A stretch of 64,000 nucleotides of DNA. It comes from a virus. The DNA is taken from the IMG/VR virus record IMGVR_UViG_3300029319_000007, one strand, 5' to 3'. The notes beneath the pieces are model-generated. The model made no database searches and had not been told where the DNA came from. It was given only the letters and a program-made list of their open reading frames with translations. Position numbers and translations under genes: made by a program. This document shows positions 5,927-9,273 of this stretch, one piece after another (position 1 is the first letter of the stretch; each line of letters opens with the position of its first letter).

Positions 5927-6054
5927 TCGCTAGTCACCTCCTTAAATGCTTCTATAGTGTTTACAACACTATCCCAAAAGTCGAATACAACTGTTGGTCC
6001 ATAAACGGTCACAACCATATAACCTATTATAAAACCTATTATTAATTTAATCAT
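5923..6054 (-). CDS. small membrane protein (43 aa)
   Basis: Hand-translated MIKLIIGFIIGYMVVTVYGP...; ATGA-type overlaps on both sides. Confidence 0.55.
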   Translation of the reverse strand: MIKLIIGFIIGYMVVTVYGPTVVFDFWDSVVNTIEAFKEVTSE

Positions 6055-6380
6055 GGGTACCTCCAAGTTCCATCTTCATTTAAACATACTTTCTTAGGTA
6101 GTTTAAATAATCCTTCACCTTTTACATAACGACAGTATTCTTGTTCAGATACGCCGGCATAATAAAATTTTGCAAATAGTTCCCAATAAGTAGGACCTAC
6201 ATTGCCGTCCCTACACACCATTTTAGTTTCTAATAAAACTTCTTTATCTGGTGTATAAATTTTTTGTATAACACAATTACTTTCCATAGTGTGAGCATAT
6301 GAATAATTTACTTTAAATAATAATATTGCTATTACTAAAGAAATAAAAATCATAATTGAAAATTTAAACGGTGTCATCAT
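6051..6380 (-). CDS. secreted/membrane Cys-containing hypothetical protein
   Basis: N-terminal hydrophobic segment; C-terminal CR...CL..DGTW motif echoing the neighbouring lipoprotein. Confidence 0.65.
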   Translation of the reverse strand: MMTPFKFSIMIFISLVIAILLFKVNYSYAHTMESNCVIQKIYTPDKEVLLETKMVCRDGNVGPTYWELFAKFYYAGVSEQEYCRYVKGEGLFKLPKKVCLNEDGTWRYP

Positions 6381-6739
6381 ATCATTCTCTCAATTATTTG
6401 CCATCTACCATCAGGTAGTTGACATGCTTTACCAAACTCTGTACTTCTATCTCTACTTGATATTGAGTATAGAGGGAATGTGTCTTGTATATCAACGGTT
6501 GATGTATAATCAACACATTTAAAACCGTTATCAATATATGATCTAGTTATTTTAATATCACCTTTATTACCTGTTTTAGGGTTGTGCCACATTAAATAAC
6601 TTGATTTGCCTGAAGGCATATTATTTAAATGATCTACAAACATTTCACTATGTACTGTTCTATCATGCATACCTAAGTTTGTGCATGAAAATAGAAAAGG
6701 TAATAATAATAAACTAGATAAGTGCTTCAAGTTCTTCAT
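6377..6739 (-). CDS. 17-kDa surface antigen (RT0821/Lpp0805-like) lipoprotein
   Basis: Lipobox LFSC; WHNPKTGNKG, C..Y and GKACQLPDGRWQI motifs. Confidence 0.75.
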   Translation of the reverse strand: MKNLKHLSSLLLLPFLFSCTNLGMHDRTVHSEMFVDHLNNMPSGKSSYLMWHNPKTGNKGDIKITRSYIDNGFKCVDYTSTVDIQDTFPLYSISSRDRSTEFGKACQLPDGRWQIIERMI

Positions 6740-7022
6740 GTGTCAATGGTTTATCATCGCCTGATGATTGCGAAACTTCAAAAGTATCTTTTAAGATATC
6801 TTCATCTTTTTCATCTTTTGATTTATATACAGGCCATGCTTTTGTGCCTTCGTGACATTGGGCAAGATTTTCCCAATTCACATCATAAGGTAAATTTAGA
6901 GAACCCATTTCTCTAAGAAACTTCGCTTTCTGTTTGCCTGTTTTATAAGAATTAAATTCTGCCATGATAGCAGGCATTGATAAGTCGTTGTCTAGTATAA
7001 TTTGTTTTTTAGTTTTTTTCAT
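6714..7022 (-). CDS. hypothetical protein
   Basis: GGAG RBS; packed ORF. Confidence 0.65.
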   Translation of the reverse strand: MKKTKKQIILDNDLSMPAIMAEFNSYKTGKQKAKFLREMGSLNLPYDVNWENLAQCHEGTKAWPVYKSKDEKDEDILKDTFEVSQSSGDDKPLTHEELEALI

Positions 7023-7026
7023 AATG

Positions 7027-7419
7027 CTATCTCCCTATATCTTTTATGTTGTTTTTAGTAATCACTTGATACGCCCCTTTATTATAAGCAGGTGCAACAG
7101 TAAACTTTTTACTTTCTTCTAATCGCCAGTTATGATGAGGTTTAGTACCACCTGACTTCTGGCGAGGACGAAGGGACTCGAACCCTCGACCTCCTGCGTG
7201 ACAGGCAGGCGTTCTAACCGGCTGAACTACGCCCTCATTTCTAGTTTCATACCAATTAGGTATAACTCTAAAACTCTTTGTATCTATCTTTCTATCAGGA
7301 TCAATGCCTAATGATCTAAGATACTTTCTTTGTTCATCTACTGCCTGACGATAAGACTTATTTTTAATAACTTTTTTAAATCGTCTAGGACTTGAATTGT
7401 GTGTGTAAATTATTGCCAT
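7027..7419 (-). CDS. T4-like phage hypothetical protein (APAYNKGAYQVI motif) with in-frame nested tRNA
   Basis: Uninterrupted 130-codon ORF directly after a consensus promoter; C-terminal TVAPAYNKGAYQVI motif recalled from T4-like phage proteins. Confidence 0.75.
   Translation of the reverse strand: MAIIYTHNSSPRRFKKVIKNKSYRQAVDEQRKYLRSLGIDPDRKIDTKSFRVIPNWYETRNEGVVQPVRTPACHAGGRGFESLRPRQKSGGTKPHHNWRLEESKKFTVAPAYNKGAYQVITKNNIKDIGR
7160..7236 (-). tRNA. tRNA-Asp(GUC), 77 nt, encoded CCA
   Basis: GAGGGCG-TA-GTTC-AGCCGGTTA-GAAC-G-CCTGC-CTGTCAC-GCAGG-AGGTC-GAGGG-TTCGAGT-CCCTT-CGTCCTC-G-CCA; all four stems pair; G73 discriminator. Confidence 0.95.
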
Positions 7420-7427
7420 TCTTGTAT

Positions 7428-7456
7428 ATTATATAGGAAAAAGGGTTAATTGTCAA
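7428..7456 (-). promoter_or_regulatory. consensus sigma70 promoter TTGACA-17-TATAAT
   Basis: -35 at 7451-7456, -10 at 7428-7433; predicted start next to the ATG at 7419. Confidence 0.85.
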
Positions 7457-7625
7457 GCATTAATTTTTGTTGATTTTCTTGATCTTTTTCAAACTCCTCA
7501 ACCATATTCTCATATTTTTCAACAGTTTGATCAATAATACCACTAACTCTTTTCTTTGATTCTATGGTATTTAATGACATTTGAATTGATCTTAACTCGT
7601 CAATAAATGTTAAAATATCTAGCAT
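7446..7625 (-). CDS. small coiled-coil hypothetical protein (59 aa)
   Basis: Hand-translated MLDILTFIDELRSIQMSLNTIESKKRV...; AAGGAG RBS. Confidence 0.6.
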   Translation of the reverse strand: MLDILTFIDELRSIQMSLNTIESKKRVSGIIDQTVEKYENMVEEFEKDQENQQKLMLDN

Positions 7626-8002
7626 TGTGTACTCTCCTTCTTTTCATTAAAATCTTTTAATAACATAAACGGTACTTTCTGACCATAGTCATGATAATAA
7701 CTAGAATCAGCATACGGTGTATCGTGTAAATCATACACATCACTATATGTCTTATAATATTCTTCATCATCTACGATAAAAACCTCAGATGATTGCAACT
7801 GATCAGGATCAATCTTGTAATCCTTCTTGCTCTCATAGTCTGCATAAACTTGATCTGCATTTTCTTTGAGAGATGGAATTGCATCCTTCATTTTGAACAA
7901 TTCAGAATACGGAACATTTCTGTAAATTGTCCATGAATTAGCAAATGTACCAGGATCTTCATGATCCCAATAGTGTCTTGAATAAACAACATGAAACGCC
8001 AT
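7619..8002 (-). CDS. hypothetical protein
   Basis: ORF in early operon. Confidence 0.65.
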   Translation of the reverse strand: MAFHVVYSRHYWDHEDPGTFANSWTIYRNVPYSELFKMKDAIPSLKENADQVYADYESKKDYKIDPDQLQSSEVFIVDDEEYYKTYSDVYDLHDTPYADSSYYHDYGQKVPFMLLKDFNEKKESTQC

Positions 8003-8006
8003 TATA

Positions 8007-8147
8007 TTATTTGCCCCCTAACATGTGAAGAACATACCACCATGTATATTCTTTTGAATTTTCTACACCAAACATCCATAAGATGTCGATAAAACCTAAC
8101 CCTAATATTGCCATAAAACTAAAAGTAAATAATTCTGATTTTGTCAT
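8007..8147 (-). CDS. small membrane protein (46 aa)
   Basis: Hand-translated MTKSELFTFSFMAILGLGFIDILWMFG...; GAAAGGA RBS. Confidence 0.55.
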   Translation of the reverse strand: MTKSELFTFSFMAILGLGFIDILWMFGVENSKEYTWWYVLHMLGGK

Positions 8148-8165
8148 AATATAGTTTCCTTTCGT

Positions 8166-8498
8166 TTATCTTAAATATAATGGACCAGTCCATTGTATTG
8201 GGTAATTACCTTCGAGGACATTACCTCTTGGTGAATTTAAAGCAGGTCTTGCCCAACTTGCAGGTTTAAGAACATCACCTTCTTTAAAATGTCTAAATGC
8301 TTTCTTTACAATGAAAGAATGAACAGAGTGTTTAGCAATAATCTTAATAAACTTTTGTCCTTCTTTTACAGACCATGAGTTAGCAAACTCTTGTTTCATA
8401 TTTTCATTCTGAGTATCTTTATTGTAATCTTCAATAGAAGCATTAATTAAGTTTTGAATGCCTTCTTTGATGTTTTTTGATGGTTTAACTTTAATCAT
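8166..8498 (-). CDS. conserved early phage protein
   Basis: GDVLKPASWARPA...RGN...WTGPLYL motif; start moved to MIKVKP, which has a GAAAGGA RBS. Confidence 0.75.
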   Translation of the reverse strand: MIKVKPSKNIKEGIQNLINASIEDYNKDTQNENMKQEFANSWSVKEGQKFIKIIAKHSVHSFIVKKAFRHFKEGDVLKPASWARPALNSPRGNVLEGNYPIQWTGPLYLR

Positions 8499-8526
8499 AA
8501 TGTATATCCTTTCGAAATATATGTAC

Positions 8527-8649
8527 ACATTACACTAAAACGACATGATTTGCAAGCATTATTTTTAAAAAAATGCAAATAAAAACCCTTATTTTTCAAG
8601 GGTTTAACTAGGTGCGACAATATGCACACCTAATGTTCTTACTTTGTTC
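8527..8649 (-). promoter_or_regulatory. promoter cassette copy 2 with GTTC-N7-GTTC box
   Basis: -10 TAATGT 8527-8532, -35 TTGCAA 8550-8555, GGTGCGACAATATGCACACC 8611-8630, GTTCTTACTTTGTTC 8635-8649. Confidence 0.7.
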
Positions 8650-9273
8650 TTATTTTATTGATAGATTTATCACGATTGTGACCCTTAATTCGTCACTTTC
8701 GAAGGGTGGCACTTCATGAACTAGACAAGATGGCGTAATCAGTAGATCATCTTGTTTGACACTTACCTGAAAATATGGTAATTGATAACTATGTTTCTCG
8801 TTTCGTATATCTAATTTACTATAATAATCAGGTCTTATATACTTAATACTATTTGCCCATTGATGTGAATTGTAAAATGTTGTTGTACTATGTTTCTTAG
8901 GATTAAACTTTGCATAATGAATACAAGTATAATCACTATCACCTATATGATCGTGTGCTCTCATATATTGTTGTGACTTCATTGCTGTATAATTGGCAAT
9001 AGTCCATTTATACTGACAATCTAAATCTAACTCTCTCATGAAAGTGTCGAATACTTTTTTGTATTCGGGCATGATAGGTTTATAATTTACTTCTTTAAAC
9101 TTTGGGTTGTTTCTGTCTCTATTACTGTGGTGTGTTTTACTATGTAAATAAGATTTGTTATCCCAACTATTACGACTTGAATCAATATCGTAGTTATGAT
9201 GAATATCATCTAGTATTGATTTAGGTGTCTTTACATTATATTTGTAAAAGGGTACACCAAAGATATATTTCAT
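8650..9273 (-). CDS. 2OG-Fe(II) oxygenase family protein
   Basis: HDH...CIHY, PS.L.HEV and R.TI..N motifs. Confidence 0.8.
   Translation of the reverse strand: MKYIFGVPFYKYNVKTPKSILDDIHHNYDIDSSRNSWDNKSYLHSKTHHSNRDRNNPKFKEVNYKPIMPEYKKVFDTFMRELDLDCQYKWTIANYTAMKSQQYMRAHDHIGDSDYTCIHYAKFNPKKHSTTTFYNSHQWANSIKYIRPDYYSKLDIRNEKHSYQLPYFQVSVKQDDLLITPSCLVHEVPPFESDELRVTIVINLSIK

What the first reader, a model, noticed from the sequence alone, without database searches (positions are those of the whole stretch)
7027..7456. Complete tRNA-Asp nested in frame inside a protein-coding gene: one transcript as both mRNA and pre-tRNA
Seen: a canonical 77-nt tRNA-Asp(GUC) at 7160-7236, with four intact stems, G73 and encoded CCA, lies on the same strand inside an uninterrupted 130-codon ORF. 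It begins on a codon boundary and reads EGVVQPVRTPACHAGGRGFESLRPRQ without a stop. It is a GC-rich island in AT-rich DNA. The downstream flank carries TVAPAYNKGAYQVI, a motif I recall from T4-like phage proteins, so the ORF does not look like a chance overlap. A perfect TTGACA-17-TATAAT promoter starts transcription next to the ATG. Inference: RNase P and 3' processing would release the tRNA and destroy the mRNA, so translation and tRNA maturation compete. This could be a switch, a processing site for the downstream lipoprotein operon, or a way to replace or decoy host tRNA-Asp against anticodon nucleases. It is the only tRNA I found in the window.
Basis: partly seen in the sequence, partly recalled or inferred. 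Interest (0 to 1): 0.9.

Follow-up and report, generated by a model that had tools for sequence, protein, structure and literature searches.

The report
tRNA genes nested inside phage gene
A working-looking aspartate tRNA gene sits in frame inside the flexible middle of a small conserved gene of a SAR11-type marine phage, and a third of that gene's relatives carry Asp, Thr, Ala, Glu or Pro tRNAs (one or two) there with the reading frame always open, so the same DNA is kept by selection both as tRNA and as protein code.

Summary
ARAGORN and Rfam (70 bits) find one tRNA in the window, tRNA-Asp(GUC) at 7160-7236 (-). It starts on a codon boundary inside the open 130-codon ORF 7027-7419 (-), behind a perfect TTGACA-17-TATAAT promoter.

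The ORF is a real gene. It is the homologue of HTVC008M AGE60505.1 and Mosig_00174, which have no tRNA, and about 1,350 metagenomic relatives exist.

I fetched IMG/VR loci by the C-terminal motif alone, which gave 149 distinct family ORFs:
- 49 hold one or two same-strand tRNAs (Thr, Asp, Ala, Glu, Pro) wholly inside an open frame.
- One has the tRNA just upstream.
- None is broken.

Three lines point to double selection:
- The tRNAs show compensatory stem changes.
- The domain downstream of the tRNA has dN/dS of about 0.15 and no start codon of its own.
- Each tRNA is open in only one or two frames, and the frame used is always open.

AlphaFold places the tRNA-coded residues in a disordered linker.

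Most likely, one early transcript serves as both mRNA and pre-tRNA. Processing and translation of that transcript were not shown.

The nearest published case is selC inside selB (Mukai 2021). I found no paper on phages. This scan noted the same layout earlier on other DNA (e1-5337812 and e1-5379051, probably this family).

The parts
7428..7456 (-). Sigma-70-type promoter TTGACA-17-TATAAT. The -10 box ends 8 nt before the ATG, so the mRNA is leaderless or nearly so.
   Evidence: 12 of 12 matches, the best site in 6000-8200. A similar promoter at the same distance is conserved in HTVC008M and in L003, L005, L006, L010 and L011.
7027..7419 (-). 130-codon host gene (stop at 7027-7029). It is the homologue of HTVC008M AGE60505.1 and Mosig_00174; its function is unknown.
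   Evidence: tblastn 47% and 45% identity over 100% of the length, E 4e-22 and 5e-19; 1,352 database relatives.
7237..7419 (-). N-terminal coding part (residues 1-61): a basic stretch followed by a confident helix at residues 21-36.
   Evidence: pLDDT 88-89 for residues 21-40. Within subclades pN is far below pS.
7160..7236 (-). tRNA-Asp(GUC), 77 nt, CCA encoded, anticodon at 7202-7200. It is read in frame as residues 62-87 of the protein.
   Evidence: The residues it encodes fall in the model's only segment with pLDDT below 50 (63-91).
7030..7159 (-). C-terminal coding part (residues 88-130), with the conserved block GGTKP..NWRLEESKKFTVAPAYNKGAYQVITKNNIKDIGR.
   Evidence: The median dN/dS is 0.15 among genes that carry a tRNA. 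No in-frame start codon lies between the tRNA and this block.
6714..7022 (-). Next gene (102 aa). Its ATG lies 4 nt after the host gene's stop, so it is probably on the same transcript.
   Evidence: No terminator-like site lies between them. One RNA-library contig spans 6975-7127 at 100% identity, which is weak evidence.

Best explanation
The window is part of a pelagimyophage (a T4-like phage of SAR11). Gene 7027-7419 (-) is a conserved small early gene whose product has two conserved ends joined by a disordered linker.

A complete tRNA-Asp(GUC) gene lies in that linker, on the same strand and in frame. It has no promoter of its own. The consensus promoter at 7456-7428 therefore makes one transcript that is both the mRNA of the 130-aa protein and the precursor of the tRNA.

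Ribosomes read straight through the tRNA sequence and turn it into 26 linker residues. This is inferred from selection. On other copies of the transcript, host RNase P and 3' trimming (CCA is encoded) are expected to cut the tRNA out, which ends that copy's coding capacity. This is inferred and not shown.

Across the family this linker acts as a tRNA slot. Cassettes of Asp, Thr, Ala, Glu or Pro tRNAs, one or two per gene, have been gained, swapped and lost many times. Only arrangements that keep the frame open survive.

In these very compact genomes the slot appears to be the only place where tRNA genes sit.
For: The tRNA is real and under RNA-level selection:
- It scores 70.1 bits. Nested tRNAs of relatives score 64-72 bits.
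- Pairs kept through changes on both sides number 8 of 21 among 10 nested tRNA-Thr and 11 of 16 among 10 nested tRNA-Asp.
- All 35 distinct nested tRNAs end in CCA, read from the sequences.

The gene is real and is translated through the tRNA:
- Homologues without a tRNA exist in HTVC008M and Mosig.
- The census covers 149 distinct ORFs, found only by the C-terminal motif and so not dependent on an intact frame. Of these, 49 have tRNAs wholly nested in an open frame, one has the tRNA 15 nt upstream of the gene, and none is interrupted.
- Every nested tRNA is open in only 1 or 2 of its 3 frames, and the frame used is always an open one.
- One Asp tRNA lineage is read in different phases in L035/L037 and L040/L043, yet their C-terminal domains differ by pN 0.01-0.04 against pS of about 0.6.
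- The median dN/dS of the domain downstream of the tRNA is 0.15.
- 42 of 49 genes have no in-frame start codon between the tRNA and that domain. None has an ATG preceded by a Shine-Dalgarno-like motif.

The slot is permissive and modular:
- pLDDT is below 50 exactly over residues 63-91.
- On a tree built from the flanks alone, tRNA presence changes at least 13 times and tRNA type at least 17 times.
- Four genes carry Glu plus Ala together.

Single transcript:
- There is a perfect promoter and no other promoter-like site on this strand between the ATG and the tRNA.

Only tRNA locus:
- It is the one tRNA in this 64-kb window.
- It is the sole tRNA in four relatives' contigs of 20-32 kb.
- A 139-kb relative judged 86% complete, whose copy of the gene has no tRNA, has no tRNA at all.
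- Published pelagimyophage genomes have 0-2 tRNAs and mean intergenic spacers of 15-25 bp (PMC7029224).
Against: - There is no direct evidence that the tRNA is matured or charged, or that the full-length protein is made. Only assembled contigs of RNA libraries could be laid, and those libraries may contain DNA.
- Frame 0 of ordinary free-standing tRNA-Asp genes is also free of stops (tblastn hits H6-H15). The open frame across the tRNA is therefore not evidence on its own. The argument rests on phase choice, on frame restoration and on conservation downstream.
- The flank tree is short (89 columns) and poorly resolved, so the counts of gains and losses are rough.
- One ENA contig (L084) ends the ORF 7 nt after the tRNA and continues into unrelated DNA.
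- The function of the protein is unknown, so why tRNAs gather in this gene is not explained.
Confidence: 0.8

Rival explanations
1. The protein is made, but the tRNA-shaped insert is not a working tRNA. It would be a structured RNA element, or merely linker code: for example an RNase P-dependent decay or processing site for the mRNA, or a relic on its way to decay.
For: No maturation or charging data exist. A linker without a tRNA in L013 aligns weakly with tRNA-Thr, as if decayed, but 122 of 2,000 shuffles reach the same score.
Against: - Full cloverleaves score 64-72 bits.
- Many stem pairs are kept by compensatory change.
- The anticodons are conserved, CCA is encoded, and the Asp identity bases G73, G10 and C38 are present.
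- Five isoacceptor types are each canonical.
- These are the only tRNAs on the contigs examined.
Confidence: 0.1
2. The tRNA is real, but the ORF across it is not translated as one protein. The C-terminal domain would be made separately or not at all, and the continuous frame would be incidental.
For: Frame 0 of many tRNA-Asp genes has no stop by nature (H6-H15).
Against: - All 49 nested cases are in frame and open, across at least nine combinations of tRNA type and phase. A random insertion would pass with a probability of about 1/9 to 2/9 each.
- The downstream domain has dN/dS 0.15, with no conserved internal start codon or Shine-Dalgarno motif.
- In the tRNA-bearing relatives read, the stretch between the tRNA and the conserved C-terminal block differs in length by whole codons and the frame stays open.
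Confidence: 0.04
3. The tRNA behaves like an intron. It is cut out at its exact ends, the two mRNA halves are rejoined (T4-like phages carry RNA ligases), and the protein lacks the tRNA-coded residues.
For: Nothing beyond the general presence of RNA repair enzymes in T4-like phages, which is my own background knowledge and was not tested here.
Against: The nested tRNAs are 76, 77 or 78 nt long, none a multiple of three. Exact excision would therefore put the conserved C-terminal domain out of frame. In the DNA the two ends are in frame only when the tRNA is counted.
Confidence: 0.01
4. It is an assembly chimera that joins phage DNA to a host tRNA-Asp.
For: Metagenome graphs break at the tRNA in run X6. 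One ENA contig (L084) has a hybrid acceptor stem and foreign DNA after the tRNA.
Against: - The same nested layout occurs in dozens of independent assemblies whose flanks and tRNAs differ in sequence.
- Both junctions of the window sequence are matched at 100% identity by separate contigs of an independent 2025 estuary run (X6, records 19 and 24).
Confidence: 0.01

Closest known systems
selC (tRNA-Sec) nested in the selB ORF of Alphaproteobacteria (Mukai 2021, Int J Mol Sci 22:4605, PMC8124441; bioinformatic)
   Same: A complete tRNA lies on the same strand inside a bacterial-type ORF that continues in frame beyond it. That paper makes the same proposal, that folding and processing of the tRNA would shut off the full-length protein.
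   Different: - There, one fixed tRNA sits near the C-terminal extension of the very factor that binds it, in cellular genomes.
- Here, a phage gene of unknown function carries five interchangeable isoacceptor types, one or two per gene, in a central linker, with repeated gain, swap and loss.
- The essential conserved domain lies downstream of the tRNA.
tRNA genes nested in mitochondrial protein genes (for example tRNA-Lys in cox1 of Armadillidium vulgare, cited in PMC8124441; tRNA-Pro-like in octocoral mutS, PMC11353228)
   Same: A tRNA lies inside a coding region in a genome under pressure to stay compact.
   Different: Those are organelle genomes with reduced tRNAs and different processing (the punctuation model). 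They are isolated cases, not a gene family with exchangeable cassettes.
Phage tRNA clusters, as in T4, with the SegB homing endonuclease (PMC2330249)
   Same: A T4-like phage supplies its own tRNAs from an early-transcribed region, and the tRNA regions are exchanged between related phages.
   Different: The T4 tRNAs lie between genes in a dedicated cluster. Here they are inside a translated frame, and no endonuclease gene accompanies them in the window.
HTVC008M AGE60505.1 / Mosig_00174 hypothetical protein family (the C-terminus matches PHROG 4593)
   Same: The window ORF is a member by sequence, with 47% and 45% identity over its full length. UDP-glucose dehydrogenase lies a few kb upstream in both HTVC008M and the window.
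   Different: The cultured members have no tRNA in the linker.

Membership tests
tRNA (Rfam RF00005), tRNA-Asp | Cloverleaf that scores above the family's gathering threshold | tested here: met
   70.1 bits against 29, covering model positions 1-71. ARAGORN calls tRNA-Asp(GTC).
tRNA (Rfam RF00005), tRNA-Asp | Stems kept by compensatory change among homologues | tested here: met
   11 of 16 predicted pairs have changes on both sides among 10 nested or adjacent tRNA-Asp. The figure is 8 of 21 for nested tRNA-Thr.
tRNA (Rfam RF00005), tRNA-Asp | Asp identity elements (G73, G34-U35-C36, C38, G10, as known for E. coli AspRS) and a 3' CCA | tested here: met
   Read directly from the sequence. The list of identity elements comes from my own knowledge.
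tRNA (Rfam RF00005), tRNA-Asp | Matured by RNase P and 3' processing, and aminoacylated | not testable with these tools
   Only assembled contigs of RNA libraries were available.
HTVC008M AGE60505.1 / Mosig_00174 protein family | Conserved N-terminal block and C-terminal block (GGTKP..W.LEESK.FT.APAYNKG.YQVI) | tested here: met
   T107, A109-G115, V119, K126 and G129 are invariant across 73 sequences.
HTVC008M AGE60505.1 / Mosig_00174 protein family | Purifying selection on the coding flanks | tested here: met
   The median C-terminal dN/dS is 0.15. Within subclades the N-terminal pN is about 0.1 against pS of about 0.5.
PHROG 4593 | Match to the whole profile | tested here: inconclusive
   Only the last 30 of 92 profile positions match (E 2e-6, residues 102-130).
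tRNA nested in an ORF (selC-in-selB type, Mukai 2021) | An entire tRNA on the same strand inside an ORF that stays open through it | tested here: met
   It holds for 49 of 49 nested relatives.
tRNA nested in an ORF (selC-in-selB type, Mukai 2021) | A functional link between the host protein and the nested tRNA (SelB binds tRNA-Sec) | not tested
   The protein's function is unknown: no Pfam family, no PDB relative and no Atlas lead. Five different isoacceptors argue against a link to one specific tRNA.
tRNA nested in an ORF (selC-in-selB type, Mukai 2021) | Remnant tRNA in relatives that lost it | tested here: inconclusive
   The L013 linker aligns in register with tRNA-Thr, but 122 of 2,000 shuffles score as well. 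A local search of all linkers without a tRNA did not exceed the null.

The most novel reading that the evidence does not exclude
This gene family would be a dedicated, modular tRNA expression slot, and the only tRNA locus of these streamlined SAR11 phages. Ribosome transit and RNase P cleavage would compete for the same, nearly leaderless, early transcript, so tRNA supply and the dose of the early protein would be set reciprocally. Whole tRNA cassettes would be exchanged between co-infecting phages by recombination in the conserved flanks.
Probability: 0.35. Interest if true: 0.85.

Novelty: new variant of a known kind. Interest (0 to 1): 0.8.

Why it matters
Coding DNA and tRNA genes are normally treated as separate features, and annotation pipelines usually drop one of two overlapping calls. 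Here a whole family in one of the most abundant groups of marine phages keeps functional-looking tRNAs inside a translated frame.

This gives:
- a natural system for studying how translation and tRNA processing share one RNA;
- an example of how very compact genomes acquire and exchange tRNAs without intergenic space, promoters or terminators;
- a warning for phage annotation and for tRNA-based host prediction. The pelagimyophage survey counts 0-2 tRNAs per genome and does not mention that they lie inside a gene (PMC7029224).

It also shows that a disordered protein linker can absorb 26 to more than 50 residues dictated wholly by RNA structure.

Tried and rejected
- Attenuation-like feedback, with codons cognate to the nested tRNA enriched upstream of it: not supported. 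Asp is 0.052 against 0.031, but Thr, Ala and Glu are equal or lower.
- Decayed tRNA remnants in linkers without a tRNA: a local alignment of all 99 did not exceed the shuffled controls. The best case, L013, has p of about 0.06.
- Function of the protein: no Pfam family, only a C-terminal PHROG of unknown function, no PDB relative (best E 0.39), and no Atlas lead. I did not run a fold search because the model's pTM is 0.29.
- The window's own genome is not held, so the phage's full tRNA set could not be counted.
- Megablast of 6000-9000 against cultured phages found nothing.
- RNA evidence: only Logan contigs could be laid.
  - RNA-library contigs match 6975-7127 and 7224-7383 at 100% identity. 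A relative's contig spans 7042-7205.
  - None bridges a tRNA end by 31 nt at full identity. No ends or expression levels can be read, and DNA carry-over cannot be excluded.
  - Depth over the tRNA itself comes mostly from other organisms' tRNA-Asp.
- Literature: four searches found no report of tRNAs nested in phage ORFs. The library lacks most subscription journals.
- The nested tRNA was not compared with SAR11 host tRNAs.

Full report
**Observation**

ARAGORN finds a single tRNA in the 64-kb window, tRNA-Asp(GTC) at 7160-7236 on the minus strand. Rfam's tRNA model scores it 70.1 bits against a threshold of 29, and it is the only Rfam hit.

The six-frame ORF list shows a 130-codon ATG ORF at 7027-7419 on the same strand. 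The tRNA begins on the first base of codon 62 and is read as EGVVQPVRTPACHAGGRGFESLRPRQ.

G73, the encoded CCA, G10 and the anticodon loop CUGUCAC can be read directly. The tRNA is 64% G+C, in flanks of 25-35%.

A 12-of-12 TTGACA-17-TATAAT promoter lies at 7456-7428, with 8 nt between the -10 box and the ATG. The transcript therefore starts at or next to the start codon. No other promoter-like site on this strand lies between the ATG and the tRNA, and no terminator-like site lies inside the gene.

**Context**

The window encodes T4-type DNA polymerase, NrdA, an SbcC-like nuclease and UDP-glucose dehydrogenase.

The ORF's only relatives among cultured phages are hypothetical proteins of Pelagibacter phages HTVC008M (47% identity, full length, E 4e-22) and Mosig (45%). 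Both have conserved N- and C-terminal blocks, a variable centre of similar length, and no tRNA. The window is thus a pelagimyophage, and the ORF is a real family member whose variable centre is occupied by a tRNA.

**The family**

A database search returned 1,352 relatives. Reading the best 120 showed several different tRNA-shaped peptides at the same central position, as well as versions without a tRNA.

To avoid selecting for intact ORFs, I fetched DNA loci from IMG/VR. The tool finds these by back-translated patterns of the C-terminal motif (APAYNKG and its neighbours). I used five query alignments headed by different subfamilies. On every locus I ran ARAGORN and a stop-to-stop frame scan. 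Loci that matched only the last 34-60 residues still made the lists, so a gene broken at the tRNA would have been seen.

Result for 149 distinct ORFs:

| Class | Count |
|---|---|
| No tRNA | 99 |
| One or two same-strand tRNAs wholly inside an uninterrupted ORF | 49 |
| tRNA-Asp 15 nt upstream of the start codon (L080) | 1 |
| ORF interrupted | 0 |

The 49 nested cases divide as follows:

| Nested tRNA(s) | ORFs |
|---|---|
| Thr(UGU) | 18 |
| Asp(GUC) | 17 |
| Ala(UGC) | 7 |
| Glu(UUC) + Ala | 4 |
| Glu | 2 |
| Pro(UGG) | 1 |

An ENA contig adds an Ala tRNA read in another phase (L083). In the short form of the gene, with Glu plus Ala, about 53 of 116 codons are tRNA sequence.

**Is the tRNA under RNA-level selection?**

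Among ten distinct nested tRNA-Thr, 8 of 21 predicted pairs are kept through changes on both sides. Among ten tRNA-Asp the figure is 11 of 16.

Nested tRNAs on four relatives' contigs score 64-72 bits. All 35 distinct sequences end in CCA. The peptide they encode changes freely with the stems (GGSIPSGG, VGSNPARG, ASSIPAHG, VCSNRTRG), so in this segment the RNA dictates the protein.

**Is the frame through the tRNA under selection?**

- Each of the 35 tRNAs is open in only one or two of its three frames. The frame used is always an open one, and the conserved C-terminal block is always back in frame. A random insertion would manage both with a probability of about 1/9 to 2/9. There are at least nine combinations of tRNA type and phase.
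- One Asp tRNA lineage is read in phase 1 in L035/L037 and in phase 0 in L040/L043. Yet the C-terminal domains of L037 and L040 differ by pN 0.010 against pS 0.60.
- Over all pairs of tRNA-bearing genes, the domain downstream of the tRNA has a median dN/dS of 0.15 at dS of about 1.1.
- In 42 of 49 genes there is no in-frame ATG, GTG or TTG between the tRNA and that domain. No ATG there has a Shine-Dalgarno-like motif, and the window gene has none.
- The tRNAs are 76-78 nt long. Exact excision and rejoining would therefore put the C-terminal domain out of frame, which excludes an intron-like reading.

A caveat is that frame 0 of ordinary tRNA-Asp genes of unrelated phages and bacteria is also free of stops (hits H6-H15). 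The bare absence of stops is not the evidence.

**Why is it tolerated?**

An AlphaFold model built with 73 family sequences has a confident helix at residues 21-36 and a moderately confident C-terminal element. Its one segment with pLDDT below 50 is residues 63-91, which is the tRNA-coded stretch plus four residues. The tRNA sits in a disordered linker that also varies in length and sequence in members without a tRNA.

**Dynamics**

On a tree built from the flanks alone (89 columns, weakly resolved), tRNA presence changes at least 13 times and tRNA type at least 17 times.

The window's Asp cassette is shared with L003-L006, whose N-terminal block is of a different type. The window's own flanks are closest to members with no tRNA and to the Ala-bearing member. 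The gene is therefore mosaic, and the tRNA moves as a module.

**Only tRNA locus?**

The nested tRNA is the sole tRNA in the window and on four relatives' contigs of 20-32 kb. A 139-kb relative judged 86% complete, with a tRNA-less copy of the gene, has no tRNA at all.

The published pelagimyophage survey lists 0-2 tRNAs per genome and mean intergenic spacers of 15-25 bp. It says nothing about their position (PMC7029224).

**Artefact checks**

Runs from at least six studies other than the possible source samples hold half or more of the stretch's sampled words. An independent 2025 estuary run has 100%-identical contigs on both sides that reach into the tRNA.

One ENA contig (L084) is identical to the window up to the T arm. 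It then has an acceptor strand that mispairs (A2·C71) and unrelated DNA after it, which ends the ORF early. I read it as a chimera or a recombinant between two tRNA-Asp loci. It is the single exception.

**RNA evidence is weak**

Contigs from metatranscriptome libraries match 7224-7383 and 6975-7127 at 100% identity, and a relative's contig spans 7042-7205. Contigs cannot show ends or levels, and DNA carry-over is possible.

**Mechanism**

Shown or strongly inferred:
- There is one promoter, so one primary transcript holds both products.
- Ribosomes must traverse the tRNA to make the conserved C-terminal domain.
- The tRNA is kept as a tRNA.

Inferred only:
- RNase P and 3' trimming release it.
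- Release destroys that mRNA copy, leaving a 5' fragment with no stop codon and a 3' fragment with no start codon.
- The near-leaderless start may set the share of transcripts that fold before a ribosome arrives.

I tested an attenuation-like model in which cognate codons lie upstream of the tRNA, and found no support. About half of the family has a strong promoter within 60 nt of the ATG; the rest have a Shine-Dalgarno-like AAGGA motif instead. The leaderless layout is therefore clade-specific.

**Comparison with what is known**

The nearest published case is selC nested in selB of Alphaproteobacteria. It was presented as the first full tRNA inside a bacterial ORF, with the same proposal of alternative expression (PMC8124441). 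Mitochondrial cases are cited there and in PMC11353228.

Four literature searches found nothing on phages. The library searched lacks most subscription journals.

This scan's earlier notes describe the same layout on other DNA:
- e1-5337812 and e1-5379051 concern a small marine or aquatic phage gene with Trp, Thr, Asp or Pro tRNAs, probably this family, though I could not match sequences.
- e1-3294985 concerns a PrimPol-helicase.
- e1-5349390 concerns HldE.

Those notes gave me the Mukai reference. All counts reported here are my own.

**Verdict**

The dual coding is real and selected. The shared-transcript mechanism is likely but unproven. The kind of feature, a tRNA nested in an ORF, has one published bacterial precedent. 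A phage gene family acting as an exchangeable tRNA slot for several isoacceptors is a new variant of it.

Noticed in passing
L088:1180-1557, L094:1183-1569, L095:241-612, L096:1167-1538: In the short form of the gene, two tRNAs (Glu-UUC, then Ala-UGC after 5-8 nt) lie inside one open ORF of about 116 aa. Nearly half of the codons are tRNA sequence.
   Followed up: partly
L080:1338-1412 and 1427-1765: In one divergent member the tRNA-Asp lies 15 nt upstream of the complete gene rather than inside it. The association with this gene therefore holds even where the tRNA is not nested.
   Followed up: partly
L084:1115-1336 (ENA contig holding P0011): The contig is identical to the window up to the T arm of the tRNA. 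It then has a mispaired acceptor strand (CGCTCCCGCCA) and unrelated downstream DNA, and the ORF stops 7 nt after the tRNA. This is either an assembly chimera or a natural recombinant at a tRNA-Asp.
   Followed up: partly
L013:3001-3363 (also proteins P0067, P0074): A linker without a tRNA (PLVTQTIRHSISTDRV...) lines up in register with tRNA-Thr of its nearest relative L012, minus 24-27 nt of the T arm. It looks like a decayed tRNA, but the similarity is not significant (122 of 2,000 shuffles score as well).
   Followed up: yes
window 7428-7456 and L003, L005-L008, L010, L011, L022, L024 upstream regions: The -10 box ends 5-12 nt before the ATG in about 30 family members, which implies leaderless or nearly leaderless mRNAs. 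Other members have an AAGGA Shine-Dalgarno-like motif and no nearby promoter.
   Followed up: partly
window 8001-8029 (-): A second near-consensus promoter (TTCACA-17-TATAAT, 11 of 12) lies just upstream of the 127-aa ORF 7619-8002. It suggests a series of small early transcription units.
   Followed up: no
window 6377-6739 (-) and 6051-6380 (-): Two small overlapping ORFs lie downstream. The first has a lipoprotein-like signal (LLLPFLFSC). Neither has a PHROG match.
   Followed up: partly
record G005 (139 kb, holds L135): A relative judged 86% complete, whose copy of the gene has no nested tRNA, has no tRNA anywhere. This fits the idea that the slot is the lineage's only tRNA site.
   Followed up: partly
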